The notes under the pieces are model-generated. The model searched no databases. It was not told the DNA's origin and saw nothing but the letters and a program-made list of their open reading frames with translations. This document shows, in pieces, positions 5,780-20,562 of a stretch of 47,657 nucleotides of DNA; position 1 is the stretch's first letter, and each line of letters starts with the position of its first letter. Origin of the DNA: Verrucomicrobiia bacterium (GTDB lineage: Bacteria > Verrucomicrobiota > Verrucomicrobiia > Limisphaerales > UBA11358); the NCBI GenBank assembly GCA_037138135.1, contig JBAXIY010000003.1:1-47657 (forward strand). Reading direction: 5' to 3'. A program made the translations under genes and the position numbers.

Positions 5780-7540
5780 TCAATAGCTTTTGGCATTGTG
5801 TGCTTTATTTTGCCCTGAAGCATCATGGCAACTCAAGGTGCAGTTTCCGTGGTTGACGCCGGTAGAAGTGTATTTCAAAACCCCATTACGCGGCAGGACG
5901 TAAGTGGTATTGAAATTAATCAGGTGCGGCTGACCGGCAGCGTGAGAGTCATGGCAGGTCGTGCAGGCGGCTCTGAATTCCTCAATGTGTTTGCGGTGAT
6001 AACGCCAGCTCGTGGTCTGCTCGCTGTCCACCACCGTGCTGCTATGGCACTTGTAGCACAACGCAAAATTCGCCTGATTATAGGCCGTGCCATCCGTCAA
6101 CAATTGCCGGCGCTCGAGCAACGGAATGTAGGCGGAACCGTGCGGGCCTTGGGGAACGGTGCTGCCGCCGCCCGCCGCCTGATCGTTGTTATGGCAGTCG
6201 CCGCAGTAGGTGAGACTGGAAATGGTCCACGGCAGAATGAGGCTGGGCACGAGGGAATTTTTCCCGATGGCTTCTACAGGATGAAAAGAGGTGTTGCCGA
6301 CCGTGAATTCCAAGCGCGTGTTCGTCTGGGGAAATTGCCGTTGCACCCGAGCAGGACCGCGATTGCCGCTGTCGCCGTGGCAACGGAAACATAATTCATA
6401 TTCGTTCTGGATCTGACGGACTTCGGCGCCAGCAGCATTGACACCACGCACACCAGTGAGCGAAGCCGGGGCGGCGGGTGCAATGGGCGTCACGGCGCCG
6501 GAAGATTTGGTCGCGTGCGGATTATGGCAATCTTCACACGCGACGTGGCGCGGCGAATTGATTACATCCTCGGTCGGATCATGCACCCCGGCGGTCAATT
6601 GGATGGGATGCACGCTTGCCTTGTTGAACTCGGTGGCCAGGTTCTTGGCCGCCACGGTTCCGCTGTGACAGGAGAAACAATTTTGCTGATCGGGCGTGAA
6701 ATTCAATAACCGCTTGGCGGTTTGGGCAGCGTGCGGACGATGACAATTTTCACAGGCATTGGCCGCCACCGTGGTTTGCGTCGTGTGCGGCCAGGGATTT
6801 TCCCCGGAACCATTCCAAGTGGCCGTGGAGGTGGCATGGACGGATGCGTTCCATTGATTCGGCACATGGCAATCCTGACACAAGGCCGAAGCGGTATTGG
6901 CCTTCACCAGAAAACTTCCGTATTGGTTATTATGTGGATCGTGGCAGGAAGTGCATTGCATCTGGCCGTTGCGATCCAGGCGCACGTCCTGCACCAGCAG
7001 GCTGGGATCGCGCAACTCGCCGTTGGCCGTGACCAGTGAGGAATTGTAAACGAATGATACGGGATGATGCGCAGAAAGATCGGTGCCTACCAATGTCCGG
7101 CCGGCCGGAATCGTGACCGCGCCCGAGGGCATCGCAATGGACGCCGGGCGGCTGAACACCATACCGAGCGCCACCGTGCCATCATGACAACTCAAGCACA
7201 GTTTGGAGGAACCTGTCGGCTGGCCGACGGCGGCTTTGAGGGTGGAACTGGTGTAAGGCGTGTAGGCAGCGGTGGACATCTGATGATTCCACAGCGGACC
7301 GTCCGAGGAAGCGCTGTGCGGCGCGTGGCAAAAGACACAGACATCGGCTTCGGTGGCAGAACGGATTGTTCCGGGGCCACTGATGGCAAGATTGTGTTTT
7401 GAATAGATGATGCTGTTAGGATTTTGTCCAAACGAAATCGGAACGGCGAAAAATAGACCCACCCAGCCAGTCAGCAGCAAGCACGCAAACAGCCTGTAGG
7501 CGGCCAGCGCGCGTGGGTTGAGGTCAGGCGAATTTTTCAT
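5780..7540 (-). CDS. 12-heme c-type cytochrome with N-terminal OmcE-like tetraheme module
   Basis: 11 CxxCH (CVFCH, CLSCH, CTSCH, CQDCH, CENCH, CFSCH, CEDCH, CFRCH, CGDCH, CYKCH, CTTCH) plus CTLSCH (CxxxCH); N-terminal hydrophobic signal. Confidence 0.93.
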   Translation of the reverse strand: MKNSPDLNPRALAAYRLFACLLLTGWVGLFFAVPISFGQNPNSIIYSKHNLAISGPGTIRSATEADVCVFCHAPHSASSDGPLWNHQMSTAAYTPYTSSTLKAAVGQPTGSSKLCLSCHDGTVALGMVFSRPASIAMPSGAVTIPAGRTLVGTDLSAHHPVSFVYNSSLVTANGELRDPSLLVQDVRLDRNGQMQCTSCHDPHNNQYGSFLVKANTASALCQDCHVPNQWNASVHATSTATWNGSGENPWPHTTQTTVAANACENCHRPHAAQTAKRLLNFTPDQQNCFSCHSGTVAAKNLATEFNKASVHPIQLTAGVHDPTEDVINSPRHVACEDCHNPHATKSSGAVTPIAPAAPASLTGVRGVNAAGAEVRQIQNEYELCFRCHGDSGNRGPARVQRQFPQTNTRLEFTVGNTSFHPVEAIGKNSLVPSLILPWTISSLTYCGDCHNNDQAAGGGSTVPQGPHGSAYIPLLERRQLLTDGTAYNQANFALCYKCHSSTVVDSEQTTSWRYHRKHIEEFRAACTTCHDSHAAGQPHLINFNTTYVLPRNGVLKYTSTGVNHGNCTLSCHDASGQNKAHNAKSY

Positions 7541-8595
7541 AGCTTGCCGGTGTATCGAAAAATTTGAATGCGGTGGTTGTAAGCATCGGCCACGAAGATT
7601 TCGTTCGCGGCGTTGATGGCAATGGCGTTGGGCAGCCAGAACTGGCCGGGCGCCGAACCCGCTTCACCCCAGGCTAGCAGCAGGCGGTCGCGGCCATCAA
7701 AAATCTGCACGTTGTCGAACAGCGCATCCACCACATACACATGACCAGCGTGATCCACCGCCACACCTTTGGGCCGGGTGAAGTGGCCGGGACCATCGCC
7801 CACGCTGCCAAACGCGCGCAGAAACTGGCCTTGCACGTCGAAGACCTGGATCCGCTCGTTCAAGGAATCCGTGACGTAGATGCGGCCCACATCATCCACG
7901 CTGACGTGGGTGGGAAAATTGAATTCGCCCGACCCTTTACCGCGCCGCCCAAACTTGGAAATAAATTCGCCGCGCACGCCGCAGATGACGACCTGATGCA
8001 ATTGCGAGTCCGCGATGATGAGCCGGTCGCCGGCGAGAGCCAAGCCGGTGGGACGCGCCAGTTCGTTGGTGATGGCGAACTGTAATTTGCCTTTTTCGTC
8101 AAAGGCGAGCACTTTACCCAGCGCCGAATCGGCGACGTAAAAAGTTTGCTCGCGATGCACGGCAGCGACCGGCGAAAGGAAGTGTTGTTTGCCAACGGAA
8201 TTCCAGTGGAGCCATTTTTTGTGAGTCAGGTCGAGATAGCTGACGGTATTGGCACCGGTATCGGTGACCAACAGATTGCCCGCTGCGTCCAGCGAAATTC
8301 CAAACGGCTTATCCAGATTATGTTTGTCGCCACTGACGCCGGTAATCCAGTTGGCAAAACGCATCAGCATGAAGGGTTTTACGCCAATGTCGGCGGGGCC
8401 GGCAATGGCGCGAACATAAACGATGTAAGGTTCGGCGGGCGGCGGCGGCCAGGCGGGTGCATTGGTCGCGGAGGGAGCGGCGAATCCGATTCCGACGGCG
8501 AACAGCCAGAGCCAGACCGCGATCCAAACGCGCAGCCCACAGCGCGTCGGGCGCAGCGGATTCGTCGGCGGTTGAGATTGAAAAATCGGCGGCAT
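7537..8595 (-). CDS. NHL-repeat 6-bladed beta-propeller, exported
   Basis: Repeated F..P.GVAVD..G.VYV.D..N.RIQVFD units; WPPPPAEP N-terminal motif; 4-nt overlap with the next gene. Confidence 0.92.
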   Translation of the reverse strand: MPPIFQSQPPTNPLRPTRCGLRVWIAVWLWLFAVGIGFAAPSATNAPAWPPPPAEPYIVYVRAIAGPADIGVKPFMLMRFANWITGVSGDKHNLDKPFGISLDAAGNLLVTDTGANTVSYLDLTHKKWLHWNSVGKQHFLSPVAAVHREQTFYVADSALGKVLAFDEKGKLQFAITNELARPTGLALAGDRLIIADSQLHQVVICGVRGEFISKFGRRGKGSGEFNFPTHVSVDDVGRIYVTDSLNERIQVFDVQGQFLRAFGSVGDGPGHFTRPKGVAVDHAGHVYVVDALFDNVQIFDGRDRLLLAWGEAGSAPGQFWLPNAIAINAANEIFVADAYNHRIQIFRYTGKL

Positions 8596-8597
8596 GG

Positions 8598-10616
8598 CTA
8601 GAAAGTTCTTTTCAGGTAAACGTAAAGGCGACTGGTGTCAAACTCCTGATCGGGCTGACCGGGCGTGGTCGTGCTCTGGCCGTTGTATTCGTAACCGGCG
8701 CGGACGCTTAACTTGCCGCGCGTCCACGTCATGCCCGTCCGGCCTGAGCTAAGATATTGTTTGGTGCCTAACACGTCTTGAATGTTATAGCCGCCTTCCA
8801 CAAACCACGAGAGCGAAGACAGAAACTGAATGCTGTAGCGGCTGAGAAATTGATATTGGTTCTGGCTGCCGCTATCGGGATACGTATAGGAGGATTGATT
8901 CAACGTCACGCTGAAGGTCGAAGTGTCCGACGGCTGACAATTGAACATCTGAAATAAGCGCCAGGCCTGATACGCGGTGAAATTCGAATTGTAATCTTCA
9001 TATTCCGCCCCAGCGCGAAACCAGTGCCAGCCGTAATCCACGCCGCCTACCCAGTCAGTGAGTGTTTGCGTCTGCACCTGCGGCGGCGCATTGTTATCCA
9101 GCCAATTCAGCCGACCATAGATGCCAAACTTGTTGAATATATCCAGGCGAATTTGGGCGGTGGCGTTGAGCGAGTCGAATGAAGCGGTGTAGAGCGAATC
9201 GCTTTCGTAAGTCACCTTCACCACATCGCCGCTGTGCAAAATGGTGCTGGTGGGCACCAGCAAAATCTGCGTCAAGTCCCCGACCTGCACGAGTTGGTAA
9301 TCCACATTCAATTGGGTCGGTATACCGCCGGGACCTTTCACGACCACGGAGGACAAAATCACATTCGGATGATCGAGAAATGTCGGCGGACCGACCAGAT
9401 TCAACTGATGCGGTTCATCAATGGTGGTGAGGACATCGCCGTAGGAATTTTGATCCTGATGATCGGCGATGGCACCAGCCCCGATGGTCAACCGCCCCCA
9501 AGTCCCAAGTTTTTTGGTGTAATTTTCCGACACGCCAAAACCATAGCGGTCGTAGGTCGAGGAACTCCCCCCACCCGAATAATCTTGGTAGTTGCCGTGC
9601 ACATCCACTTGGGAAGTGAGGCTCTCATAGAGATGATGCCGGATGCCGCTAACGCCCTGCACCGTCGAATCCGTGACCGGATGCAATTGGTTGTGGCTGT
9701 AATCCACCGAATAAAAACTATCGAGATTAGGCGTGTGGGTGACGTTAACATTCTCGTTGGCGGTGACGGTCTGTAACTGTTGTCCCGAGTAATCCGACTC
9801 ACTGAAGCTGGCCCCGGTGGTGGCAACAATCTGCTTGTGCGCCCCAAAAGTTTCCGAATCCGAAATGCCGACCGACTGATTCAGGCTGGACGAGGTAGAA
9901 CCGACTTTGTTCGTCGTGTTGTAACTGTTGTTGACCGTGTTTTCAAATTGGTTGATGTGGTAAGTCAACGATGTCTGGCCGGATTGCCGGTGGTCGGCGC
10001 CAAAGAAATTGAAATACGTTTCCGAAACCTCCGTGAAATCGTTCAAGCCCGTGTCTTGCTCGTTCCGATACCCCGCGTCCGCCGTCATGGTCACCCGCTC
10101 ACTGTTGTAATTGACCACGCCGCCATAGCGCAGGCTGTCCACCGTGAAGGTATTGAACGAACCGTAGTCGCTATAAGTATGGTCTTGCGTCGCGAAGAAA
10201 GAAGCGTTGTAAGGTTTGGCCGAAAGAAAATTGAGTTGCGCCAGATACCGCATCAATTGCTGGCTGTCCTTGGTAGTCTGCGTATAACCCGGCCCCGTGG
10301 AAGACGATTGATTCCACCCCCACCCGATGTCACCACCCAAGTCAAACGTGACCAGATTTGGGTGATAAACATAACCCTGAGTCTGTAGTCCAACCAGCGG
10401 CGTCAGTGAAAGCTGATTGTAGGTGGAAGTTACGCCGTTATTGCGCGTGGTCTGGTGCGTGCCCTGCACTTCCATGCCAACACTCGCTTGCGGCGGACGC
10501 ATCAACTGGAACCAGCCCAATTCTTGCGACCGTCCCGTCCGCGCCAATCCCAGTGCGATGCCCACACCCAACAGGCGGGTGAACCAGCGACTGTGATGAT
10601 CTCCGGAAAAATTCAT
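8598..10616 (-). CDS. outer-membrane beta-barrel porin of a porin-cytochrome complex
   Basis: Signal peptide; Y/N/S/T/G-rich alternating amphipathic strands; C-terminal RLYVYLKRTF ending in Phe; flanked by multiheme cytochromes. Confidence 0.8.
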   Translation of the reverse strand: MNFSGDHHSRWFTRLLGVGIALGLARTGRSQELGWFQLMRPPQASVGMEVQGTHQTTRNNGVTSTYNQLSLTPLVGLQTQGYVYHPNLVTFDLGGDIGWGWNQSSSTGPGYTQTTKDSQQLMRYLAQLNFLSAKPYNASFFATQDHTYSDYGSFNTFTVDSLRYGGVVNYNSERVTMTADAGYRNEQDTGLNDFTEVSETYFNFFGADHRQSGQTSLTYHINQFENTVNNSYNTTNKVGSTSSSLNQSVGISDSETFGAHKQIVATTGASFSESDYSGQQLQTVTANENVNVTHTPNLDSFYSVDYSHNQLHPVTDSTVQGVSGIRHHLYESLTSQVDVHGNYQDYSGGGSSSTYDRYGFGVSENYTKKLGTWGRLTIGAGAIADHQDQNSYGDVLTTIDEPHQLNLVGPPTFLDHPNVILSSVVVKGPGGIPTQLNVDYQLVQVGDLTQILLVPTSTILHSGDVVKVTYESDSLYTASFDSLNATAQIRLDIFNKFGIYGRLNWLDNNAPPQVQTQTLTDWVGGVDYGWHWFRAGAEYEDYNSNFTAYQAWRLFQMFNCQPSDTSTFSVTLNQSSYTYPDSGSQNQYQFLSRYSIQFLSSLSWFVEGGYNIQDVLGTKQYLSSGRTGMTWTRGKLSVRAGYEYNGQSTTTPGQPDQEFDTSRLYVYLKRTF

Positions 10617-11983
10617 GGGCCAACCGCCGCCACCTTTCCGGCCGCCGGATTCAGCGCGCTGGCTTTAAGCAGCGATTTGTTATTCCCAACGTGCGGATCG
10701 TGACAGAGGGTGCAGGTCTTGCCCGCCGCCCCAGCGTGGCCTTTGACCGCTTGTAAATCCTTGTCGTCATGGCAATCGCCGCACAGCTTCAAAATATTTT
10801 TGGCCAGTAAGCCAGTCTCCGTTGATTGATGCGGTTTGTGGCAACCGGTGCAATCTTCAACCACGTCGTGCTTGAATTTGGCCTTCTCCAAAAAGTTGTC
10901 GTGGCAATCCCAACACAGCGCCGGTGCGGATTTTTTCACGAGCGCCTTTTTGTCCGTTGCGTGGGGGTTATGGCAGGCCAGACAATCGCCATCGCCCACG
11001 GGTTGATGCACCACCTTGGCGTTCTTGGCCTGAATGTCATCGTGACAATCCGCGCAAGTGTCCTTCACTGTTTTCTTCAACAGCCCTTTTATTTGGGTGG
11101 CGTGCGGATTGTGACACGCCAGACAATCGCCATCACCAACGGGCTGATGCACAAACTTTTTCTTAGCAATCAGGTCGTCGTGACAGGCGGCGCACGTTGC
11201 TTTCACCGGCTTTTTTAGGAGCTTCGGAATTTTCCCGGCGTGCGGCGTGTGACATTCCAGACAATCACCATCGCCGACCGGTTGATGCACAAATTTTTTC
11301 TTGGCCGTGAGATCGTCATGGCAATCAGCGCAGGTTTCTTTCACGGATTTTTTCAACAACCCTTTGAAATTGGTCGCGTGTGGCGCATGGCAATCCAGAC
11401 AATCACCAGATTCCACCGCCTGATGCTTGACCTTGCCGGCCGCCAGCGGATCGTCGTGACAAGTGAGGCACAGCGCATTGCCCGGAGTCAGCAGTAATTT
11501 TTTGTTGAACGATTGATGCGGCGCATGGCAGCTCTTGCAATCACCCTCCTCCACCGGCGGATGTTTGACTTTGCTAGCGACAAATTTTTTCTGCAGTTCC
11601 TGATGGCAGGCAAAACACGCTTCGCCCGGCTTGCCCTTCATCGTCTGGGAAAACGCCGATTCATGGCACGCCGTGCAATCGCGCTTCGCGTAAGGCGGAT
11701 GCACGATGAGCGGCGGGCGCGCCGGCGCCGCCGGCGTCGTCACTGTGACTTGGCCGGTGGCATTGGTGGTCGAAACGGGCGTCACCGCCGTGGTCGCTAC
11801 CGCATTCGTCGCGCCCGGTTGCGGCACGCCATCGAAGAAAAATGTCAGCCACTTCTGTTTGGTTTCCGTGGCGCAGCCCGCCAGAATCACCAGACCGCAC
11901 AGCAACCCAGCCAGTCCACTGCCAGTGCGACAGCGGCGGCGAAAATCAGTTTTTCCCAGAGGCGATTTCATGTGGTCGATCAA
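10613..11983 (-). CDS. 15-heme c-type cytochrome lipoprotein (doubled-CxxCH repeats)
   Basis: Lipobox ILAGC; 15 CxxCH motifs in H.PV..GDC..CH.PH...LLK....C..CH repeats. Confidence 0.93.
   Translation of the reverse strand: MIDHMKSPLGKTDFRRRCRTGSGLAGLLCGLVILAGCATETKQKWLTFFFDGVPQPGATNAVATTAVTPVSTTNATGQVTVTTPAAPARPPLIVHPPYAKRDCTACHESAFSQTMKGKPGEACFACHQELQKKFVASKVKHPPVEEGDCKSCHAPHQSFNKKLLLTPGNALCLTCHDDPLAAGKVKHQAVESGDCLDCHAPHATNFKGLLKKSVKETCADCHDDLTAKKKFVHQPVGDGDCLECHTPHAGKIPKLLKKPVKATCAACHDDLIAKKKFVHQPVGDGDCLACHNPHATQIKGLLKKTVKDTCADCHDDIQAKNAKVVHQPVGDGDCLACHNPHATDKKALVKKSAPALCWDCHDNFLEKAKFKHDVVEDCTGCHKPHQSTETGLLAKNILKLCGDCHDDKDLQAVKGHAGAAGKTCTLCHDPHVGNNKSLLKASALNPAAGKVAAVGP
10920..11470 (-). 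repeat. intragenic tandem repeats of a ~46-aa diheme unit
   Basis: GACAATC anchor recurs at 10981, 11122, 11260 and 11398 (periods 141, 138, 138 bp); HQPVGDGDCL appears three times. Confidence 0.9.
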
Positions 11984-12005: not shown

Positions 12006-13085
12006 TCAGTTCTTTTTCAAGAAACCATAGACGCTGACTTTCTGGCCGCCATACTGGCTGGTGACGAGAATGAGGTATTCGCATTGATAGCCGGGGGCGA
12101 CATACTTCTGAAAATAGCTGAGGTTGTCGTAATCCACTTTCACGGCCGCCGGTAAAATCACTTCGCCCTGCGTGCTGGCACCCGCCTGACCAAAGAACAG
12201 CAGCAACCGGCCCTCCGTATCAAAAATCTGCACGACCTGCGTGGCCGCATCCACGACATAAGCTAGTCCTTGACGATCCACCGCCACGCCCTTTGGACGC
12301 GCAAAGAGGCCCGCCGCCACGCCCTGACGACCAATCGTCCGCAAATATTTTCCCTCCAGATCAAACACCTGCACCACGTTGGCGCCGGTATCGGACACCA
12401 ACAACCGATTGCCTGCTTTATCAATCGCCAGATTCGTGGGACCGAACAGTCTGCCTTCATTCGTATTGCCGGTGCGCGGAATCGTGAACAGAAGTTGATG
12501 ACTCGTCTTGCCATAAACCCGCACGGCATGACCACTAAGATCGGTGACGTAAAGCCGGTCCGCCGTAAGCGCGACATCCGACGGCTTCAGTTCATCCTTC
12601 TTCCCGATGGCCTCAATAAAAGTTCCATCTTTCCCAAAAATCAAAACCTGCTGGCGGCCAGTGTCCGCCACATAACGCGTGCCGTCCTGATCAATGGTGA
12701 TGTTGATGGGCAACCGCAATTTGCCTTCACCTTGCGGTTCAAATATAGCGGCTCGGCGCGTTTGCAAGTCAAACACCTGGATCAAGCTGCCCACCGTTTC
12801 GCAAACAAAGATTTTCCCGTCATGAAAAGCCAGTCCATAAGGTTTCACCAGCGGGTTGAGCATCTTTTGATCGCCTGTGATAAAATCGGCAAACCCATGA
12901 GACCGTCCGAGGTTGGCCTCCGCTGCGAAAGCGGTCAGGAATTGAATGCGCGGCTCGTCCGGCTTGGGTGGGAAAAAAGTGTAAGTCTTGGGAGCTTTGG
13001 GGGCGGTGGTGCAACCATTCAGCAGCGCCAATAACAGGCAGACGTTGCCCAGCGCCTTGATGTGCGATTTAGTTTTGGTGTTCAT
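12006..13085 (-). CDS. NHL-repeat beta-propeller lipoprotein
   Basis: Likely start ATG 13085 (MNTKTK); lipobox LLNGC; FFPPKPDEPRIQFL motif; NHL blades. Confidence 0.9.
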   Translation of the reverse strand: MNTKTKSHIKALGNVCLLLALLNGCTTAPKAPKTYTFFPPKPDEPRIQFLTAFAAEANLGRSHGFADFITGDQKMLNPLVKPYGLAFHDGKIFVCETVGSLIQVFDLQTRRAAIFEPQGEGKLRLPINITIDQDGTRYVADTGRQQVLIFGKDGTFIEAIGKKDELKPSDVALTADRLYVTDLSGHAVRVYGKTSHQLLFTIPRTGNTNEGRLFGPTNLAIDKAGNRLLVSDTGANVVQVFDLEGKYLRTIGRQGVAAGLFARPKGVAVDRQGLAYVVDAATQVVQIFDTEGRLLLFFGQAGASTQGEVILPAAVKVDYDNLSYFQKYVAPGYQCEYLILVTSQYGGQKVSVYGFLKKN

Positions 13086-13242
13086 AGTGAAATTGCTTTT
13101 AAGCTTTACCAATATTTTACCCCGGCAAACCAATCCGACTCACCATAAATTGTCCAAGCCATACCAATTTCTGACCACGCATCCCTGCGGCTAGAAATTC
13201 ATCGCCAACATCGAAGATTTACTCGTTCATACCACCAACTTG

Positions 13243-13307: not shown

Positions 13308-16300
13308 TTATGGAGTCACGATAATGTAGTTAGTGCGCGTCAACGTGTTCGTTACGCCAAGGTTAATCGCCTTGAGCGTGACCGTATTAGTGCCAGCACT
13401 GAGGTAGGTGTTGGCCACATACCGGTTAGTGGAAGTGTTGCCGTCACCAAAGCTCCAAGCATAAGCCGTCGCATTAGAACTAAGATTGTCAAACACCACC
13501 GTCAACGGCGCCTTGCCGCCCGTGATTTCGCCGATGAAGGACGCCACCGGAGCCGCTTTCGCGACGACGTAGCTGGTGCGGGCCAACTGGTAGGTCACCC
13601 CGTTATAAACCCCCGAGAGCGTCACCGTATAGGTGCCGGCGTTGGTGTAGTTATTGACCGGATTGGTGTTCGTGGACGTTTGGCCATCACCAAAGTTCCA
13701 GAGGAGGTTGGACATGCCAGCACTCTTGTTGGTGAAGGAAACCGCCATTGGCACCACACCCAACGTGACACCGTTGGTGAAGTTTAGCCCGCCAACAGTG
13801 ACGTAATTATTGCTGCTCACCGATATGCTACCACTTCCAGACATATTGGCCCTCAAAGATGGCGAATATACACCGGGAATGGTGTAAGTATAGCTGACTG
13901 GCAACGTATCCGTCGTTTCCAAGCGGTCAGACGAGAACGTCCAGCGCCACCAATCAACACTGCCCGTATTGACGCTCTTGTTGGTGAAGTTCACCGTCAA
14001 CGGTGCCAGACCAGCCGTCACATCGGCGTTGAAGCTTACGGTCGAGAAGTCCCGGACTTTAATGTAAGACGAACGCGTCATTGTGCTCCCCGTAGCCGTG
14101 TCGGTATAACTCACGTCATACAGACCGGCGGCACTATAGGCATAGGTCACATAATTCAGAGCTTGGGTAACAATCGTGCCCGGGCCACCGAAGTTCCATG
14201 TGCCACCCGTCGTGGCGCTGAGGTTAGTGAACGTGACATTCGTTCCGACATAAGTCGTGATAAGCGCAGCATAAGTGACTGGATAGACCGAGAAGCTGGC
14301 TTTGTAGGCAGGAGCGGCAGTCATCTGCCCCACCACTAGAGCCTCGGCATTGGTCAACATGGTCTTGGTAAAGGTGGGATTATGCACCCCATAGCTACCA
14401 TCATGAGCAACCATGTAGATATTGAACCGAGCCTTGCGAATGGCGTCCGGAATCACCAACTGCATATTGTCGTTGGTTCCAGTCGGCACTCCGCCGGTCA
14501 ACTTGGGATTAAAAGCCGAAGGCGGACCTGCAACAGCCGCGCCGCTGGGATTGCCCAATTCACCCGGCGTGGTGTATTCCCAAGCCATCGAACCATAGTT
14601 CGTCCGCAGGATGTCCGGAGCCAGTCCGGGCGTAATTGCCCATTGATTCAAAAGCGACACCACGCGGGCGATGCTATTCGATTCCTGATACTGGAGATCC
14701 TCGATTTTTCCAAAGAACGCCTCGTCAGTCAGACCTGAATGGCACTGCACGCAGTTCTGGAAGTCCACTTCATAGGTGTGGCCGGTGACTTTGGTCGTGG
14801 CATTCACGTCATAAATCGGCACGTGGCAAGTAGCGCATTGATTCGTGTTGCCAGTGGAACCGTGAGCGTGAATGGTGGCCGTCAGGTAATAATTCGTGTC
14901 AGGTTTACCAACCAGAATATTGTATTGCGGCGAAAAATGCGGTGAGCGGCCATAGCCGGAGCTATTGGTGCTGTAATTGGTCACTCCGCCGACGACATAA
15001 GGAATCAGCGGCGACATCAACTTAATTCCCGAAACATTGTTCGTCGAAGTAACGACGTTCGTGGCTAATACTGTTTCCCAGGGCGTGTTTGGATCGGGCG
15101 TCACGCTAACCACATTGGTCGCCGTGCTAATCACTGCGTTGGTGACCAAGGTATAGGCCTGACCATCCCAACTAGCGCCACGGGAATTGTGACATTGACC
15201 GCAGACCTGAATTTTCGCGTTATACGTGCTGTCGAACGTGGTGTTGTTGTAAACGGTGTTGGTGGTAAAAGCTCCTAACGCATTGGTCGAGCGCAACGTT
15301 CCCAGATAGGAATCCGTTGTCGTCGGCATGGTATAGAAGTTGGTGGACCAAGTGGTGTAACGCAACTGCGCGATGTTATTCGTGGAGTGCGGATCATGGC
15401 AGGTCGCACAGACAGCAGTCCAAGCCGCGCCATCATTGGGTGCCGCAAAGTTAATTGGATGATGCGGCTGGCCGGAAAGCGCGTCATTATATTCGCTCAA
15501 CATCGCGTAGCGTGTGGCCGCCGAATGGCAGACGCCGCACTGGGCCGCGCGGGATTGGCCGGGATCAACTGCCGAGCCGGGCACGAAGCCGCTGTTCAGA
15601 ATACCGGACGTGGCATTAGTCACGCCAATGACATTGGTATTGCCCGCAGTGGTGATGACCACGTTGGTATAACCCGAGTAAACAATTTTATTGGTCACAT
15701 CGGTGGCGCCGGCGATTACGGTCAAATTGGTCACCGCGTAGCCATAATAAACCTTGGTTCCAATGATCACCGTGTTGGTGAAGTAGTTGGTAAAGGCGGC
15801 GTTTCCATACTTGATGTCCGCATTCACTTGGGCATGCAGACTTTCCGCATATTCAGTATAGGTGGGATGGTGGCTATCCTGATGGCAACTACCGCAGATT
15901 TTTGGATCAATGGTGATCGCCGGACGAATCAGGGCATGATCGCTGTTCTTGTGCCAGCCCGCCGGGCCATGGCAGCTTTCGCAGCCGACGTTGGCTAGTT
16001 GCGGCGTGGTCGAACTAGAAGTGAAACCGGTCGGCTGATTCATGCCCACCGAGTGACACTGCACACAGCTGGCGTTATTGCCCATGCCGATGGCTTGAAG
16101 CGTCGCCAGTGCGCTGGCGTGGTGGGTGCCCGCATAATTGGTGTAAATATTTCCGTGGCAGCCGGCACAATCACCGGAACCGGCATAAAAATTCGTCTGG
16201 TTCAGGCGAAAATACCAGTTGTTACCAGATTCTGGTCGCGCCGCTGTGACCGACCAAGCATAGTCGGTTGCTTCAGTGCTGACGAACGGAAACCAGTTAA

Positions 16301-16565
16301 CCAGATTGGTCGTGGCTTCAACAGTGCTCCAGCCGCGCATACCATACCAGGAAAACGTCACGTTATTGGTGCCGTAGTCTGGGACAATCGTCGTCTGTCC
16401 CGGCACGCCACGGGTGCCGTTTGTAGCTTCATTCTCCACCGGAATAGAGGCCGGCCAGCGATACATGTCCGCGCGCGCAGTGGACGCAAACATCCCGCCC
16501 AGAGCCAACCCAGCCGTCAAGACGGCCAAAGCGTGGCGCAGGGAGGTTTGATAGATTTTTTTCAT
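13308..16565 (-). CDS. 9-heme extracellular/surface cytochrome c with four C-terminal PKD domains
   Basis: Signal peptide (..TARA); CAGCH, CVQCH, CESCH, CGSCH, CGVCH, CATCH, CGQCH, CATCH, CVQCH; ARFNIYMVAHDGSYGVHNP helical end; PKD motifs (APLTVNF..WNFGDG..Y..AGTYTVTL). Confidence 0.9.
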   Translation of the reverse strand: MKKIYQTSLRHALAVLTAGLALGGMFASTARADMYRWPASIPVENEATNGTRGVPGQTTIVPDYGTNNVTFSWYGMRGWSTVEATTNLVNWFPFVSTEATDYAWSVTAARPESGNNWYFRLNQTNFYAGSGDCAGCHGNIYTNYAGTHHASALATLQAIGMGNNASCVQCHSVGMNQPTGFTSSSTTPQLANVGCESCHGPAGWHKNSDHALIRPAITIDPKICGSCHQDSHHPTYTEYAESLHAQVNADIKYGNAAFTNYFTNTVIIGTKVYYGYAVTNLTVIAGATDVTNKIVYSGYTNVVITTAGNTNVIGVTNATSGILNSGFVPGSAVDPGQSRAAQCGVCHSAATRYAMLSEYNDALSGQPHHPINFAAPNDGAAWTAVCATCHDPHSTNNIAQLRYTTWSTNFYTMPTTTDSYLGTLRSTNALGAFTTNTVYNNTTFDSTYNAKIQVCGQCHNSRGASWDGQAYTLVTNAVISTATNVVSVTPDPNTPWETVLATNVVTSTNNVSGIKLMSPLIPYVVGGVTNYSTNSSGYGRSPHFSPQYNILVGKPDTNYYLTATIHAHGSTGNTNQCATCHVPIYDVNATTKVTGHTYEVDFQNCVQCHSGLTDEAFFGKIEDLQYQESNSIARVVSLLNQWAITPGLAPDILRTNYGSMAWEYTTPGELGNPSGAAVAGPPSAFNPKLTGGVPTGTNDNMQLVIPDAIRKARFNIYMVAHDGSYGVHNPTFTKTMLTNAEALVVGQMTAAPAYKASFSVYPVTYAALITTYVGTNVTFTNLSATTGGTWNFGGPGTIVTQALNYVTYAYSAAGLYDVSYTDTATGSTMTRSSYIKVRDFSTVSFNADVTAGLAPLTVNFTNKSVNTGSVDWWRWTFSSDRLETTDTLPVSYTYTIPGVYSPSLRANMSGSGSISVSSNNYVTVGGLNFTNGVTLGVVPMAVSFTNKSAGMSNLLWNFGDGQTSTNTNPVNNYTNAGTYTVTLSGVYNGVTYQLARTSYVVAKAAPVASFIGEITGGKAPLTVVFDNLSSNATAYAWSFGDGNTSTNRYVANTYLSAGTNTVTLKAINLGVTNTLTRTNYIIVTP

Positions 16566-16620
16566 AAGTTTTTTAGTGGTTTGGTTTCGTGGCGGTCAGA
16601 CCGCATTAAAACCTACGGGT

Positions 16621-17373
16621 TTACTTATTGTGGCAACTGCGGCAGAGCAAACTGCCCACACCGCCCTGCGTGCCGTTAATTTTGACCAGCTTGGGATTGC
16701 TGTTGATGTCAAACGGTGTGCCTTCCTGATTGTGAACGTCATGGCAGGAACTGCATTCCAACGCGTGATTGGCACCGAGCAAAAATCCTTTGATGGTCAT
16801 GTCATTACCCGGAACGAAGGTGCCGTTATCGGGCGTCAGCACCGTCCGCGTGTCGGGGTTATACAACCATTTGTCCTGATTAGGTCCCGCGCCGACGATG
16901 GAAGCATCGTAGGTCAGAGAAATCGGATGCGAGTGGGTCAAGTCCGTGCCCAGATTGGCGCTGTTCGTAATCGTGATGCCTACCCCGCCGACGGTGACAC
17001 CGCCATAAGTATTGATGGCCACTGTGCCGTCATGGCAGCTCAAGCAAGCCTTGGAAGGGCCGTTTGGTTGGGCGGCAATGGTCGCCTGTAGCGAAGTGGC
17101 CGTATCTCCGAGCGCGGTGACGTTGGCCGTATTATACATCTTGAAGGTAGAAGCCGTGGTGGCGTGCGACCAAAGCGGAATCACGCTGCTATCGGCATGG
17201 TGAGGCGTATGGCAAGCGCTACAAACGCTCTTGGGATCTGCCGGATCGTTGTTCCAGCTGCTGCCAGCCGGGCCGGAAAAATCATGTGGACTACCGACGA
17301 CGCTCGCCCGAGCGGTGAGGGTTAACAGTGTGCCCGTAAGCACAGTCAGAGTGATGAGGTTGAGTGTTTTCAT
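16621..17373 (-). CDS. omcE: tetraheme cytochrome c, OmcE-like (candidate cytochrome nanowire subunit)
   Basis: 250 aa with signal peptide. Motif order PHDFS / CSACHTPH..IPLW..TASTFKMY / CLSCHDG / ANLGTDL..HP / LECSSCHDVH / GSLLCRSCH.K matches the Geobacter OmcE sequence as I recall it. Confidence 0.82.
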   Translation of the reverse strand: MKTLNLITLTVLTGTLLTLTARASVVGSPHDFSGPAGSSWNNDPADPKSVCSACHTPHHADSSVIPLWSHATTASTFKMYNTANVTALGDTATSLQATIAAQPNGPSKACLSCHDGTVAINTYGGVTVGGVGITITNSANLGTDLTHSHPISLTYDASIVGAGPNQDKWLYNPDTRTVLTPDNGTFVPGNDMTIKGFLLGANHALECSSCHDVHNQEGTPFDINSNPKLVKINGTQGGVGSLLCRSCHNK

Positions 17374-17552
17374 ATTTATATTTAGGTTGTTCAGTTTAAC
17401 TACGCGCGTTGTGTTGTTGTTCGATTTGATTCGGATTGGTCTGCTCGCGGGTGGATATCAGCACCGCGTTTCCAACAGCAGACGCGCCCAGCGACCAACC
17501 GGTCGGCTCACATCCACTGTCAAATTGGTTAAAGTTTTTCATATGTTCTGGT

Positions 17553-18617
17553 TCAGCCATGACAAAGCACTAGTCCGCCAGCGGACACCACTACGGCAGG
17601 CTTCGTGAATGGCGAATTAAAACGCGCCATCAATTCCGCCGTATGTTCGGCGATGATCTGCTCGCACAAGGCCAGTTCCTGGCTGCGATTCTTGGTGTTC
17701 TCACGAACGACTGCTTCAAGATCGTCAATGTCGTAAAGGAAAACGTTCGGAAGTTCCGCCACTGCCGGATCGATATCGCGCGGCACCGCGATGTCCACGA
17801 GCACCAGCGGACGATTGCCGCGCGCCGGTAAAATTTTTGCCACATCCTCGCGCTTCAAAACAATTTCTGGGCTGCCGGTCGAGCTGACCAAAATATCAGC
17901 GTCCATCATCGCCGCCGCCGAATCTTCGATCCGCACCGCGCGCCCGCCAAATTCCGTCGCGAGCTTTTCTGCGCGTTCCACCGAGCGGTTGGCCACTAAC
18001 ACCGTCTTAGCGCCACGCTTAGCCAGATGCTTCACGCAGGCTTCACCCATTTTGCCTGCACCCAAAATCATGACCGTCTTCGAACTCAAGTCGCGGTCAA
18101 ATACTTTCTCCGCCAGTTCTACTGCCACGCTGCCGACCGACGTCGCGCCGCGGCCGATGCCGGTATTCGTGCGGACCGCCTTGACTACCGCAAACGCCGT
18201 CTGGAAGAGTCGATTCATTTTCTTACCAACGAGGCCGGCGTCTTTCGCGGCTTGATACGCATTCTTAACCTGTCCGGTAATTTCCGTTTCCCCAATCACA
18301 AGGGAGTCAATGCCGCTGGCGACAGCAAATAAATGTTCTGCTGCCGCCGCGCCTTCCTTGACATAGAGATGCGGGGTAAAATCAAAATCGCTGCCCGTGA
18401 GTTCCTGAAACAGCTGCTGGACGCGACCGTGAATCCAAGTCGAGACTCCGTAAATCTCCACGCGATTGCAGGTGGAAAGCAGCACCACTTCTTCCAGCCC
18501 GCCGCGCAACTTGAGCCGGCAGCCGCTGCATTGCAGGCGCGAGCGCTGGACGGCCAACTTCTCACGCACCTCCACGGGCGTGGTCTTGTAGCTCAATCCG
18601 GCAACAAAGATTTTCAT
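17553..18617 (-). CDS. hemA: glutamyl-tRNA reductase
   Basis: LSTCNRVEIY, HLF.VASGIDS.VIGE.EI.GQVK, GAGKMG, DIAVPRDI motifs; short C-terminus (354 aa). Confidence 0.96.
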   Translation of the reverse strand: MKIFVAGLSYKTTPVEVREKLAVQRSRLQCSGCRLKLRGGLEEVVLLSTCNRVEIYGVSTWIHGRVQQLFQELTGSDFDFTPHLYVKEGAAAAEHLFAVASGIDSLVIGETEITGQVKNAYQAAKDAGLVGKKMNRLFQTAFAVVKAVRTNTGIGRGATSVGSVAVELAEKVFDRDLSSKTVMILGAGKMGEACVKHLAKRGAKTVLVANRSVERAEKLATEFGGRAVRIEDSAAAMMDADILVSSTGSPEIVLKREDVAKILPARGNRPLVLVDIAVPRDIDPAVAELPNVFLYDIDDLEAVVRENTKNRSQELALCEQIIAEHTAELMARFNSPFTKPAVVVSAGGLVLCHG

Positions 18618-18751
18618 AACTTGATTTAAAACCTGACAACAACTGCTTGAAGTAAATCTAAACGGATGAAAAAAACGCGCTTACCATATATTGCTATTTA
18701 CCACGCAACATTTGGCGAGATTAACTTTTAGATTTTGACTTACGAGCAGCA

Positions 18752-20479
18752 TCATATTTCCTTACCGCTTTCCAAAACGCTGGATTTATCGGAACGCCGC
18801 TGGGCGGCCGCCGGCTCGAGCGGGTGTTCGTGCGCTTGAAATTCCTCGGAAATGCGACCGTCCAGGCAGGCTGTATTTAGCGGATAAACTTCGGGATCAA
18901 AGATGACATGGTAGAAGTGCCAGACGACGATCGCGAGGCAGGCCAGCACCGCTTCGTAGTAATGAATGGTCGTCGCCACGGCCACCACCCAGCGGGGAAA
19001 ATATTGCGTCACGTCAATCTTCAGCCAGATCGCCAGACCGGTCGCCCCCATGATGATGGTGCCCCAGACGACCGCCCAGTATTCCATTTTTTCGGCATAG
19101 CCGAAGCGTCCGATTTTGGGTTTATCCTTTGTAAATCCACCTAAATATCGCACCGCCTGCCAAACGTCGGCCAGATCTTTTTTCACCGGAAATAGGTCCG
19201 CCACCAACTTCCTTCCGTCGCGTGTGGCGAGAAGATATATTAAATGATACAGGCCGATGGCCAGCATCACGATGCCCGCGACGCGATGCGACCAGCGGCG
19301 AAACGGCTCACTGGAGCCCAGAACCTTGGCCAGCCAGGAGTCTGGAAATTTCAACGCAAAGCCGGTGACGGCCAGCGCCATGAAACTCGTCGCCAACACC
19401 AGATGTTGCCAGCGTTGCGAGGTGGTCATTCGGACCACCGGCCGCTCGGTCATCCGTAAACGCGCCGCGGTTTTTTTTATGAACAGAATGCCGTTGTGGG
19501 CCAGCATTGCGCCGATGGTGACAAAAATGAGCGTAAGATAAATGCGCCGCGTCCAGTTATTCAACCGGCTGCCAAAATCCGTGCCGCCCGCCTGCCCGTC
19601 CGGTGCCACATGGATTTTACCCTGCGAAAATTCCTGATTCGCTCCCGGATGACACTTGCCGCACGTCGTGACGAGATTGATTTTGTTGATGGTGGAATTG
19701 GTATCCGCCGACGGCAGGATTTTATGATAGCCGTGGCAGCTCGCGCAGTTCGCCGCCACAGTCGAACCATATTGCGCCGCCAGCCCGTGATAGCTTTCAA
19801 AAAAGGTTTTTACGCGATCAGCGGGCAGATTGAATTTCGTATTCAACCGCTCGGACGCATGGCAGCGACTGCAAACATCTTCCGAAATCGCCATGGCCGA
19901 GCTGCTTTTGAGCGAACGGATTTTATGTTCGTCATGGCAGCCGGTGCAGGTGGGCGCGTCGTGCGATCCCGCCATGACGGCCTGACCATGCACGCTGACC
20001 TGCCACTCGCGCGCCTCCCGGTCGTGACACGCGCCGCAGGTTTCGGCCTGCCGGGAAAAATAAATCGGTGAGGTCGGCGAATCGGCGGAAGCCATCTCGT
20101 GTGAATCATGGCAATCGCGGCACGTGGCCGCATCAGCATGCCCAGACTTCAACGCGAGGCCGTGAACACTGGCGTTAAAACTTTCAGTCTGGCGCGCGTG
20201 ACATAAAGCGCAATTCACCATGGCCACCGGCTTATTATCATCCGGGTGCTTGGCAGTCAGGTCGGCGTGGCAGCTGATGCAGGCGTTGGTCCGGTGCGCG
20301 GACAATTTGAATTTCGCCACATCCACAAAGAGTGAAACCGGCTTGCCGGCGGCATTGGTTTTGACAAGCGTGTTATCGCCATGGCAATCAAGACAGTCGC
20401 TGTCCTTCACACCGCCAAACATCGGCGTCACCACTAGGCCGAGCGCCAGCAGAAAACAAAACAGGGGATTCATTTCCAT
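18752..20479 (-). CDS. cbcL: CbcL-like inner-membrane quinol oxidase: 9 c-type hemes fused to a cytochrome b domain
   Basis: Likely start 20479 or 20473. Motifs CLDCH, CISCH, CALCH, CRDCH, CGACH, CTGCH, CSRCH, CASCH, CGKCH, then TM helices with b-heme His (RWQH, WSHR, IHYYEA..WHFYH) and EKMEYWA. Confidence 0.85.
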   Translation of the reverse strand: MEMNPLFCFLLALGLVVTPMFGGVKDSDCLDCHGDNTLVKTNAAGKPVSLFVDVAKFKLSAHRTNACISCHADLTAKHPDDNKPVAMVNCALCHARQTESFNASVHGLALKSGHADAATCRDCHDSHEMASADSPTSPIYFSRQAETCGACHDREAREWQVSVHGQAVMAGSHDAPTCTGCHDEHKIRSLKSSSAMAISEDVCSRCHASERLNTKFNLPADRVKTFFESYHGLAAQYGSTVAANCASCHGYHKILPSADTNSTINKINLVTTCGKCHPGANQEFSQGKIHVAPDGQAGGTDFGSRLNNWTRRIYLTLIFVTIGAMLAHNGILFIKKTAARLRMTERPVVRMTTSQRWQHLVLATSFMALAVTGFALKFPDSWLAKVLGSSEPFRRWSHRVAGIVMLAIGLYHLIYLLATRDGRKLVADLFPVKKDLADVWQAVRYLGGFTKDKPKIGRFGYAEKMEYWAVVWGTIIMGATGLAIWLKIDVTQYFPRWVVAVATTIHYYEAVLACLAIVVWHFYHVIFDPEVYPLNTACLDGRISEEFQAHEHPLEPAAAQRRSDKSSVLESGKEI

Positions 20480-20535
20480 GATTTTCGGCTGGCATCGGCG
20501 AAAGCGCTGCCCTCGATTTGCCAACTTCTCGCCTG

Positions 20536-20562
20536 TTTTTGATGCCAATTCACCATCAAAAA
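20536..20562. promoter_or_regulatory. inverted repeat, candidate operator upstream of cbcL
   Basis: TTTTTGATG-N9-CATCAAAAA, perfect 9-bp arms, in the divergent cbcL/aspC intergenic region. Confidence 0.45.

What the first reader, a model, noticed from the sequence alone, without database searches (positions are those of the whole stretch)
16621..17373. OmcE-type cytochrome nanowire subunit outside the Geobacter lineage
Seen: a 250-aa secreted tetraheme with four candidate distal His (PHD, CHTPH, HSHP, CHDVH) that ends right after the last heme (CRSCHNK). Established: G. sulfurreducens OmcE is a tetraheme that polymerises into extracellular filaments. The motifs IPLW..TASTF, CxSCHDG, ANLGTDL..HP, LECxSCHxVH and GSxLCxxCH are colinear with OmcE as I remember it. 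Inference: this organism may build cytochrome nanowires.
Basis: partly seen in the sequence, partly recalled or inferred. Interest (0 to 1): 0.9.

Follow-up and report, generated by a model that had tools for sequence, protein, structure and literature searches.

The report
OmcE-type nanowire cytochrome cluster, Verrucomicrobiota
A freshwater Verrucomicrobiota-like bacterium carries a true relative of the Geobacter OmcE "nanowire" cytochrome inside the full gene set that goes with such wires, which extends a known system to a new, environmentally common group but does not show that filaments are made.

Summary
ORF 16621-17373 (-) encodes a 250-aa secreted tetraheme c-type cytochrome. It is a sequence homologue of both solved OmcE filaments (7tfs E 3.3e-17, 9yuq E 2e-11). 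It keeps all four CxxCH motifs and all four distal His. An AF2 model superposes on 7tfs (Z 12.1, 176 of 202 residues).

[quoted passage not shown] A CbcL-like quinol-oxidase fusion, hemA and a 9-heme PKD cytochrome lie beside it. The same core set recurs in 28 of 80 related loci, from 8 labelled phyla, including a Geobacter sp. MAG.

Filament formation is inferred, not shown; the homo-oligomer fold gave no verdict.

It is a new member of a known kind. An mBio 2026 paper already lists cluster-associated OmcE homologues in five phyla, though not Verrucomicrobiota.

The most novel lead is the cluster's conserved 11-heme cytochrome (5780-7540). It begins with a complete OmcE module (7tfs E 3.2e-23) and is a candidate filament anchor or tip.

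The parts
16621..17373 (-). OmcE-family tetraheme c-type cytochrome, 250 aa (P0001). Putative filament subunit.
   Evidence: 7tfs E 3.3e-17; 9yuq E 2e-11; ligand conservation; model; 7tfs Z 12.1. RNA-library contigs 16730-17054 and 17267-17426, with no differing letters.
18752..20548 (-). CbcL-like fusion: 9 CxxCH in the N-terminal part plus a cytochrome b (Ni_hydr_CYTB/FdnI-type) membrane domain. Putative inner-membrane quinol oxidase feeding the pathway.
   Evidence: (PF01292 7.9e-16 on residues 373-552; c7/c3 heme domains), (9 CxxCH). Homologues adjacent in L003 (79% id) and L013 (63% id).
17553..18617 (-). hemA, glutamyl-tRNA reductase (heme biosynthesis), between the CbcL-like gene and the OmcE-like gene.
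   Evidence: GlutR_N 8.3e-45, Shikimate_DH 2.8e-44.
13308..16565 (-). 1085-aa multiheme cytochrome (9 CxxCH) with C-terminal PKD domains. A lineage-specific insert in the cluster, probably surface-exposed.
   Evidence: (PKD_4 1.3e-24, Cytochrome_C554 1.9e-18). Homologues found only in L003 and L004 among the 80 loci. RNA-library contigs lie across 13336-16561.
12006..13133 (-). NHL-repeat beta-propeller with a lipobox (LLNGC). First of the two cluster propellers.
   Evidence: NHL 1.6e-18, 6-bladed propeller 1.8e-13; sequence. Homologue next to the tetraheme gene in most loci.
10613..11983 (-). Multiheme lipoprotein with 15 CxxCH and a lipobox (ILAGC). Putative periplasmic or conduit cytochrome.
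   Evidence: (Paired_CXXCH_1 4.9e-89, 8 stretches).
8598..10616 (-). 672-aa outer-membrane beta-barrel (P0122), about 28 long strands, C-terminal ...KRTF.
   Evidence: No Pfam hit. AF2 pLDDT 88.7, all-beta. Foldseek hits are large outer-membrane barrels, among them MtrB 6r2q_B at rank 7, LptD and the FimD/PapC ushers. 36 of 41 homologues end in F or W. Homologue present in the Geobacter sp. locus L048 (2e-22).
7537..8595 (-). Second NHL-repeat beta-propeller, 352 aa. It has a signal or anchor segment; no clear lipobox was seen.
   Evidence: (NHL 3.3e-27).
5780..7540 (-). 586-aa 11-heme cytochrome (P0123). Residues 41-225 form a complete OmcE-like tetraheme module, followed by a 7-heme MtrC-like part. 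Candidate filament anchor or tip.
   Evidence: 7tfs E 3.2e-23 over chain 23-230; 9yuq E 6e-19; 34% id to P0001 over the whole module; PF22113. 46 of 51 homologues carry 11 CxxCH. The N-modules form one clade. The L048 Geobacter sp. homologue hits 7tfs at E 6.6e-29.
4919..5710 (-). 263-aa secreted protein of no known family, at the cluster's end. Membership in the system is uncertain.
   Evidence: No Pfam hit, sequence. Homologues lie within 10 kb of the tetraheme gene in L005, L039, L051, L067 and L076.

Best explanation
The gene encodes the stand-alone subunit of an OmcE-type cytochrome system in a freshwater Verrucomicrobiota-like bacterium.

Shown here:
- It is a Sec-type secreted, bis-His tetraheme c-type cytochrome, homologous in sequence and predicted fold to the two OmcE proteins solved as filaments.
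- It sits in an orthologous copy of the omcE gene cluster: beta-barrel, two beta-propellers and multiheme cytochromes.

Inferred pathway:
1. The CbcL-like cytochrome b/c fusion takes electrons from the quinol pool.
2. The 15-heme lipoprotein and the ~28-strand barrel carry them across the outer membrane.
3. The 11-heme cytochrome with its own OmcE module connects to the outside.
4. The 250-aa subunits polymerise head to tail. One of the four conserved distal His completes the coordination of a heme in the neighbouring subunit, giving a continuous heme chain.
5. That chain hands electrons to extracellular acceptors such as Fe(III) or humic matter.

The propellers are assumed to help assembly or anchoring.
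For: Sequence homology:
- 7tfs E 3.3e-17 and 9yuq E 2e-11, with nothing else below E 0.1.
- This is as good as the stand-alone tetraheme of a Geobacter sp. cluster scores against 7tfs (1e-15).

Ligands and ends:
- H30, H58, H149 and H214 plus the four CxxCH are invariant in 57 homologues and kept in 92-98 of 98 stand-alone homologues.
- The C-terminus ends exactly 2 residues after the last CxxCH, as in 94 of 98 homologues. The full-length alignments show the same for 9yuq and 7tfs.

Fold:
- AF2 model pLDDT 79, pTM 0.78.
- The only Foldseek hit is 7tfs, probability 1.00.
- VIA Z 12.1, rmsd 3.5 A, 176 of 202 residues.

Cluster:
- The published hallmark set is OmcE, a large beta-barrel, two beta-propeller lipoproteins and two multiheme cytochromes (PMC13712944 section 8). 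All are present in the window.
- All five core parts occur in 28 of 80 related loci, and 3-4 of the 5 in 28 more. The set includes the Geobacter sp. locus L048.

Other support:
- The genome has a ResB-type cytochrome c maturation gene and 14 ORFs with 3 or more CxxCH.
- Contigs from two RNA libraries of one freshwater sample cover the OmcE-like gene and the downstream 9-heme gene with no differing letters, apart from one letter in one X7 piece. They leave about 6.5-13.3 kb of the same stretch uncovered, while a DNA run covers all of it. This is a weak hint of transcription.
Against: - No filament has been seen for this protein or for any Verrucomicrobiota.
- Only two family members have been shown to polymerise. 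OmcE-like tetrahemes are very common: 3425 clusters at 50% identity at E <= 1e-3.
- Identity to 7tfs is only 28-32%. Foldseek TM is modest (0.42/0.51). The N-terminal third of the model is poorly confident (block means 52-65 for residues 11-70).
- Filament interface loops are reported as not conserved among homologues, so interface residues other than the His ligands cannot be checked by sequence.
- The RNA evidence comes from contigs of one sample, in libraries that can hold DNA.
- The cluster is rare in the organism's own phylum as sampled: 3 of 401 genomes, own included.
- The physiological role of cytochrome filaments is itself disputed (PMC11077965; title and abstract seen in the listing).
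Confidence: 0.65

Rival explanations
1. The protein is a non-polymerising tetraheme. It would serve as a surface or periplasmic electron carrier of a porin-cytochrome conduit, the model proposed for Verrucomicrobia by He et al. 2017. It would resemble OmcE by descent only.
For: - He et al. read comparable Verrucomicrobia clusters as a novel porin-multiheme cytochrome complex (10.1101/150078, passages seen).
- The barrel model matches MtrB among other large barrels.
- The family is huge and mostly uncharacterised.
- A ninth, often conserved His (H70, 77 of 98 stand-alone homologues) could in principle close the coordination within one chain.
Against: - Position 70 alternates H/R/K: R in 33 and K in 7 of 52 fused modules, R in the close relative L004, and R in both solved OmcE sequences as printed. 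That fits a basic contact rather than an iron ligand.
- The N-terminal His30, the strict two-residue C-terminal tail and the whole omcE cluster are conserved exactly as in the filament formers.
Confidence: 0.25
2. The system works in the opposite direction. It would take up electrons from Fe(II), reduced humics or a partner cell rather than export them.
For: - Heme chains are reversible conductors (established knowledge).
- OmcE-like clusters also occur in MAGs labelled as sulfur or iron oxidiser lineages: Thiobacillaceae, Ca. Thiodiazotropha, Ca. Tenderia.
Against: The adjacent CbcL-like cytochrome b/c fusion resembles the Geobacter quinol oxidase used for outward transfer. This rests on the domain architecture; the CbcL function is recalled. 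No oxidiser-type Cyc2 or similar gene was looked for.
Confidence: 0.08
3. The ORF is a chance open frame or a decayed gene.
For: None found.
Against: - 3870 database proteins match at E <= 1e-3, many at 60-82% identity over the full length.
- All functional residues are intact.
- RNA-library contigs lie on it.
Confidence: 0.01

Closest known systems
OmcE of Geobacter sulfurreducens (PDB 7tfs), the tetraheme filament subunit
   Same: - Four CxxCH, four distal His, an N-terminal His arm and a C-terminus two residues after the last heme.
- Colinear motifs and the same predicted fold (Z 12.1).
- The same kind of gene cluster.
   Different: - 28-32% identity.
- 250 against 232 residues, with longer loops around residues 80-105 and 155-200.
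- His instead of Arg after the PLWN motif.
- No block of glycosyltransferase genes was seen next to the cluster in the window. Such a block accompanies the Geobacter type.
- The host is a Verrucomicrobiota-like freshwater bacterium.
OmcE of Desulfuromonas soudanensis WTL (PDB 9yuq), which forms bundled anti-parallel filaments
   Same: Homologous tetraheme (E 2e-11). It has the minimal cluster type without glycosylation genes.
   Different: Weaker similarity than to 7tfs. The bundling loops are reported as not conserved in any homologue, so bundling cannot be predicted here.
Putative porin-multiheme cytochrome clusters of freshwater and peat Verrucomicrobia (He et al. 2017; Fiorito et al. 2026 preprint, EET3/EET4)
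   Same: Same phylum and humic or freshwater habitats. The reported clusters combine a >=20-strand porin with periplasmic and extracellular multiheme cytochromes. A figure legend of the 2026 preprint calls one predicted cytochrome 'OmcE-like'.
   Different: - Those papers treat the clusters as new or sequence-divergent conduits. He et al. state that homologues of the Geobacter outer-surface cytochromes are absent. The word 'nanowire' occurs 0 times in the 2026 preprint.
- Whether their clusters are the same as this one could not be checked. Their figures and supplements were not available to me.
Chaperone-usher pili, as an analogy for assembly
   Same: A secreted small subunit is encoded next to a large outer-membrane barrel. 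The barrel model also matches the FimD/PapC ushers (ranks 23, 40, 41). PMC13712944 raises the analogy itself.
   Different: No chaperone or usher sequence family was detected. The subunits are heme proteins joined through His-Fe ligation, not donor-strand exchange.

Membership tests
OmcE-type nanowire cytochrome | About 200-250 aa with exactly four CxxCH heme-binding motifs | tested here: met
   250 aa, 4 CxxCH. 82 of 97 stand-alone homologues from the loci also have 4, and 14 have 5.
OmcE-type nanowire cytochrome | Significant sequence similarity to solved OmcE filament subunits | tested here: met
   7tfs E 3.3e-17 (query 12-221), 9yuq E 2e-11. The next PDB sequence is at E 0.78.
OmcE-type nanowire cytochrome | Four further conserved His that give bis-His ligation of all hemes (PMC13712944 section 7) | tested here: met
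   H30, H58, H149 and H214 align with His of 7tfs and 9yuq. They are invariant in A1 and kept in 96, 92, 98 and 97 of 98 stand-alone homologues.
OmcE-type nanowire cytochrome | OmcE fold | tested here: met
   This rests on a predicted model only. AF2 pLDDT 79. Foldseek finds 7tfs alone (E 1.1e-7). VIA Z 12.1, rmsd 3.5 A, 176 of 202 residues. 9yuq is not in the fold library, which holds entries up to April 2026, so it was not compared.
OmcE-type nanowire cytochrome | [quoted passage not shown] | tested here: met
   for the window. Searches show orthologous order in 28 of 80 loci, including Geobacter sp. L048. A lipobox is seen in one propeller only.
OmcE-type nanowire cytochrome | Export signal | tested here: met
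   Read from the sequence: a hydrophobic N-terminus ending ...LTARA/SVVG, which is helix 2-17 in the model. No dedicated signal-peptide predictor was available.
OmcE-type nanowire cytochrome | Head-to-tail polymer in which a His of one subunit ligates a heme of the next | not testable with these tools
   The property is stated for OmcE in PMC9473688 and PMC12954529 (passages seen). It needs a structure or a multi-copy fold with the full heme load.
OmcE-type nanowire cytochrome | Extracellular location and electron conduction | not testable with these tools
   This needs an experiment.
Mtr/Pcc-type porin-cytochrome conduit | MtrB/OmbB-type barrel sheathing an MtrA/OmaB-type periplasmic decaheme | tested here: inconclusive
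   The barrel model matches MtrB (6r2q_B, TM 0.33) no better than TonB receptors, LptD or ushers. No Pfam family for the barrel. The DmsE/MtrA-type NCBIfam TIGR03508 was scanned only on the OmcE-like, 1085-aa and CbcL-like proteins and stayed far below its cut-off. The 15-heme lipoprotein and the 11-heme cytochrome were not scanned against NCBIfam. Pfam PF22113 (MtrC/F domains II/IV) hits the 11-heme cytochrome at 3.4e-12.
CbcL-type inner-membrane quinol oxidase (the neighbouring gene 18752-20548) | Multiheme c domain fused to an FdnI/HydC-type dihaem cytochrome b | tested here: met
   PF01292 on residues 373-552, plus c7/c3 domains; 9 CxxCH. That this is the CbcL architecture is recalled, not taken from a call. 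No direct comparison with Geobacter CbcL was made.

The most novel reading that the evidence does not exclude
The cluster's best-conserved gene may encode the missing terminal subunit of OmcE-type wires. It is the 11-heme cytochrome at 5780-7540, with homologues in 51 ORFs of the 80 loci, including a Geobacter sp. cluster.

Its mature N-terminus is a full OmcE module that keeps all eight heme ligands, so it can join the polymer at one end. Its C-terminus runs on into seven more hemes, so no further subunit can add behind it. That would wire the filament to the barrel as a base, or to minerals as a tip.

If the reading is right, OmcE-type wires with a dedicated adaptor are a common outfit of at least eight labelled phyla, among them abundant freshwater Verrucomicrobiota, Bacteroidota, Ignavibacteriota and Planctomycetota.
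Probability: 0.35. Interest if true: 0.7.

Novelty: new member of a known kind. Interest (0 to 1): 0.5.

Why it matters
Cytochrome nanowires have been solved from only a few cultured organisms. Here the full OmcE gene set appears in an uncultured freshwater Verrucomicrobiota-like genome, with RNA-library contigs lying on it. The same set appears in MAGs of at least eight labelled phyla.

This ties the "novel porin-cytochrome clusters" reported from humic lakes and peat to a structurally known wire. It gives concrete targets for testing long-range electron transfer to humic matter or iron in carbon-rich waters.

The in-cluster OmcE-module fusion also makes an open question about how such wires start, end or attach directly testable.

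Tried and rejected
- Homo-oligomer prediction (collected). Two copies of residues 24-250, with alignment A1 and four hemes, scored 0.32, 0.23 and 0.16 against a mark of 0.42. The tool's verdict was 'no answer' and the controls were not run. I count it neither for nor against binding. Only half of the eight heme sites could be filled under the ligand cap.
- Pfam and NCBIfam gave no family above cut-off for the OmcE-like protein. No curated OmcE family was hit in these libraries.
- The promoter and terminator scan of 13100-20900 found no more sites than shuffles do: 4 against 5.4 and 8 against 9.4. It yielded no operon boundaries.
- Base composition is flat across the window, GC 0.53-0.60. There is no compositional sign of recent transfer.
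- Taxon names by protein search. The Verrucomicrobiota assignment therefore rests on two things. One is the labels of the nearest homologues. The other is RpoN identity to labelled MAGs.
- RNA contigs leave about 6.5-13.3 kb and 18.5-20.6 kb of the laid stretch uncovered.
- The paper search was badly framed, because OmcE was not required, and gave nothing usable.
- The original OmcE structure paper (PMC9357133) is not held. I therefore could not read which of the four His crosses to the neighbouring subunit, and I make no claim on it.
- I could not place the two solved OmcE sequences in my tree, because PDB chains are not stored proteins. I compared bit scores instead. They give a mixed picture: 7tfs is nearest to the fused N-modules, and 9yuq is nearest to the L048 stand-alone protein.
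- Supplements and figures of PMC13712944, He et al. 2017 and the Fiorito preprint were not visible. They may list Verrucomicrobiota homologues or describe the 11-heme protein.
Full report
WHAT IS THERE

The minus-strand ORF 16621..17373 encodes 250 residues. It begins with a hydrophobic signal-like segment ending ...LTARA/SVVG. It carries four CxxCH motifs (C51, C110, C207, C244) and stops two residues after the last heme His.

Against all PDB sequences, phmmer finds only two real matches. One is 7tfs, the G. sulfurreducens OmcE filament (E 3.3e-17, query 12-221). The other is 9yuq (E 2e-11). By its date, its title 'Putative multiheme cytochrome c' and its 16 chains, I take 9yuq to be the Desulfuromonas soudanensis OmcE bundle of PMC13712944. 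The next sequence is at E 0.78.

Pfam and NCBIfam have no family for the protein above cut-off.

LIGANDS AND ENDS

I aligned 57 full-length homologues taken from the two large protein searches. In that alignment, H30, H58, H149 and H214 are invariant, and so are three of the four CxxCH motifs. The second motif (C110-H114) is kept in 90% or more of the rows.

I also aligned 98 stand-alone homologues and 52 N-terminal modules of a fused form, all taken from 80 genomic loci.
- The four motifs are invariant.
- In the stand-alone set, the four His are kept in 96, 92, 98 and 97 of 98.
- In the fused set, they are kept in 51, 50, 50 and 52 of 52.

This is the pattern the 2026 structure paper gives for OmcE homologues: four CxxCH regions and four further heme-coordinating His (PMC13712944 section 7).

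In OmcE, one interfacial heme takes its second His from the neighbouring subunit (passages of PMC9473688 and PMC12954529). I could not read which His this is, because the original paper is not held.

A ninth frequent His, H70, is not a likely ligand. The position alternates between basic residues.
- Stand-alone proteins: H in 77, R in 7 and K in 1 of 98.
- Fused modules: R in 33, H in 8 and K in 7 of 52.
- The close relative L004 has R.
- Both solved proteins have R, as printed.

Ninety-four of 98 stand-alone proteins end exactly two residues after the last motif. The alignments show the same for 9yuq and 7tfs.

FOLD

An AF2 model built on the 57-row alignment has mean pLDDT 79 and pTM 0.78. 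It is weak over residues 11-70.
- Foldseek finds 7tfs and nothing else: E 1.1e-7, probability 1.00, TM 0.42/0.51.
- VIA-align gives Z 12.1, rmsd 3.5 A over 176 of 202 residues, spanning model 29-249 and chain 30-231.

NEIGHBOURHOOD

All of these genes lie on the minus strand.

| Coordinates | Product |
|---|---|
| 18752-20548 | CbcL-like fusion of a 9-heme domain with a cytochrome b |
| 17553-18617 | hemA |
| 16621-17373 | the OmcE-like gene |
| 13308-16565 | 1085-aa 9-heme cytochrome with PKD domains |
| 12006-13133 | NHL beta-propeller with a lipobox |
| 10613-11983 | 15-heme lipoprotein |
| 8598-10616 | 672-aa protein without a Pfam family |
| 7537-8595 | second NHL propeller |
| 5780-7540 | 586-aa 11-heme cytochrome |
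| 4919-5710 | 263-aa secreted protein of no family |

The 672-aa protein folds with pLDDT 88.7 as an all-beta barrel of about 28 long strands. It matches large outer-membrane barrels: TonB-dependent receptors, LptD, MtrB at rank 7, and the FimD/PapC ushers. It ends in ...KRTF, and 36 of 41 homologues end in F or W.

[quoted passage not shown] The window holds exactly this set, plus the PKD cytochrome and the CbcL-like gene.

RELATED LOCI

Of these, 513 encode a relative, and the best 80 were kept with 10-kb flanks.
- tblastn and blastp of the window's cluster proteins show the same gene set and near-identical order in many of the loci.
- All five core parts (stand-alone tetraheme, propeller 1, barrel, propeller 2, 11-heme protein) occur in 28 of 80 loci. 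Three or four of the five occur in 28 more, many of them cut by contig ends.
- By NCBI label, the complete sets lie in Bacteroidota (7), Pseudomonadota (6), Ignavibacteriota (4), Calditrichota (3), Planctomycetota (3), Verrucomicrobiota (2), Thermodesulfobacteriota (2, one an uncultured Geobacter sp., L048) and Nitrospirota (1).

The paper lists five phyla: Thermodesulfobacteriota, Pseudomonadota, Aquificota, Campylobacterota and Nitrospirota. Verrucomicrobiota and several others in my list are not among them. The paper does say that similar tetrahemes are 'widely distributed'.

The PKD cytochrome is found only in the two closest loci, L003 and L004. A full-length CbcL-like neighbour is found in L003 and L013.

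WHOSE GENOME

The window is contig C3 of a 3.08-Mb, 90%-complete assembly.
- Named homologues of the tetraheme are labelled Verrucomicrobia or Verrucomicrobiota.
- The window's RpoN is 81% identical to that of the L003 genome.
- It is 71% identical to that of a 'Verrucomicrobiota bacterium' (L013).
- It is 64% and 81% identical, over its two matched pieces, to that of a 'Verrucomicrobia bacterium' (L004).
- It is 49% identical to that of an Opitutae MAG and 40% to that of the Geobacter sp. MAG.

So the host is Verrucomicrobiota-like and not a Geobacter. This is an inference from labels. The tools gave no direct taxonomy.

In a sample of 401 genomes of its phylum, only 3 have a match at E <= 1e-10, the window's own included. 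The system is therefore patchy in the phylum. GC content shows no foreign island.

The DNA is held almost whole by freshwater and lake metagenome runs of four coded studies, X1-X5. X1 may be the source of the assembly.

EXPRESSION HINT

Contigs of two metatranscriptome libraries, X6 and X7, come from the sample that may be the source.
- They lie on 13336-17426, which covers the PKD cytochrome and the OmcE-like gene. None has a differing letter, apart from one letter in one X7 piece.
- One further piece lies on 6132-6324, in the 11-heme gene.
- Low depth is also recorded on hemA (X7, bins 17476-18523).
- Nothing lies on about 6.5-13.3 kb, although the DNA run X2 covers all of it evenly.

The uneven cover argues against plain DNA carry-over. 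However, these are contigs of one sample, so I rate this a weak hint of transcription and nothing more.

MECHANISM

Shown:
- Homology to OmcE.
- Conserved ligands.
- Predicted fold.
- An orthologous gene set.

Inferred:
- The electron path runs from quinol through the CbcL-like protein, the 15-heme lipoprotein and the barrel.
- From the barrel it continues through the 11-heme cytochrome and the polymer of the 250-aa subunit to the external acceptor.
- The polymerisation itself.

THE FUSED OmcE MODULE

Residues 41-225 of the 586-aa cytochrome match the whole of 7tfs (chain 23-230, E 3.2e-23) and 9yuq (E 6e-19). That is better than the stand-alone protein scores. They align with P0001 over all four hemes at 34% identity.
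- Homologues of 500 aa or more occur as 51 ORFs in the 80 loci, and 46 of them have 11 CxxCH.
- Their N-modules form one clade: 49 rows, support 96. The tree was made with FastTree and has no bootstrap.
- The Geobacter sp. homologue hits 7tfs at E 6.6e-29 over chain 13-232.

The discussion of PMC13712944 asks what anchors or tips the filament. [quoted passage not shown] This protein is a candidate. A figure legend of the Fiorito et al. preprint calls some predicted 8-13-heme cytochromes of Verrucomicrobiota or Acidobacteriota clusters 'OmcE-like'. The resemblance may therefore have been noticed, but without the nanowire reading. In the held library the phrase 'OmcE-like' occurs only in these two works.

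COMPARISON AND NOVELTY

This is an OmcE-family member by every sequence-level criterion I could test. It sits in the cluster type that the literature treats as the mark of nanowire competence.

It is not a new kind of system. It is a new member in a phylum not listed for it, and it links the Verrucomicrobia 'novel porin-cytochrome' clusters to the OmcE system. He et al. 2017 explicitly found no homologues of the Geobacter outer-surface cytochromes in their genomes.

None of the listed papers states that Verrucomicrobiota carry omcE-type clusters. Subscription papers, figures and supplements were not searchable.

VERDICT

- Observation: confirmed.
- Interpretation: supported at the level 'may build nanowires'.
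- Confidence that the protein is an OmcE-family cluster subunit: about 0.95.
- Confidence that it polymerises into a wire: about 0.65.
- Interest: 0.5.

Noticed in passing
window 5780-7540 (-); L048:16458-18131: The cluster's 11-heme cytochrome starts with a complete OmcE-like tetraheme module (7tfs E 3.2e-23; the Geobacter sp. homologue E 6.6e-29). It is the best-conserved gene of the cluster across phyla, at 38-59% identity.
   Followed up: partly
L003 (CAZHIM010000082.1): This MAG contig is labelled 'uncultured Bifidobacteriaceae'. Yet it carries the closest copy of the whole cluster (tetraheme 69%, CbcL-like 79%), and its genome has an RpoN 81% identical to the window's. An outer-membrane barrel and sigma-54 do not fit an actinobacterium, by established knowledge, so the label is probably wrong.
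   Followed up: partly
P0132 (1400 aa), P0184 (965 aa), P0139 (594 aa), P0153 (459 aa): Database proteins with three or four separate OmcE-like stretches in one polypeptide. These may be tandem 'pre-polymerised' OmcE modules.
   Followed up: no
loci L009, L017, L025, L040, L062 and others: Many clusters hold two to four stand-alone OmcE-like genes. 14 of the 97 stand-alone homologues from the loci carry five CxxCH, which matches the five-heme OmcE-like group mentioned in PMC13712944 section 9.
   Followed up: no
window 4919-5710 (-): A 263-aa secreted protein with an Ala/Pro-rich linker and no Pfam family. Homologues lie within 10 kb of the tetraheme gene in L005, L039, L051, L067 and L076.
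   Followed up: no
window 11065-11232 (inside the 15-heme lipoprotein gene): One low-depth DNA contig of run X2 replaces 166 bases by 28 other letters, in the repetitive paired-CXXCH region (tables 5 and 5c). It may be a strain variant in the number of repeats, or an assembly artefact.
   Followed up: no
window 17553-18617 (-): hemA, the first committed step of heme synthesis, sits between the CbcL-like gene and the OmcE-like gene, inside a run of five cytochrome genes holding 48 CxxCH in all.
   Followed up: no
G000 contigs C42, C269, C45, C8, C343, C21, C73: Nine further ORFs with 3-11 CxxCH lie outside the window, three of them on C42. These are possible additional electron-transfer loci in a 3-Mb genome.
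   Followed up: no
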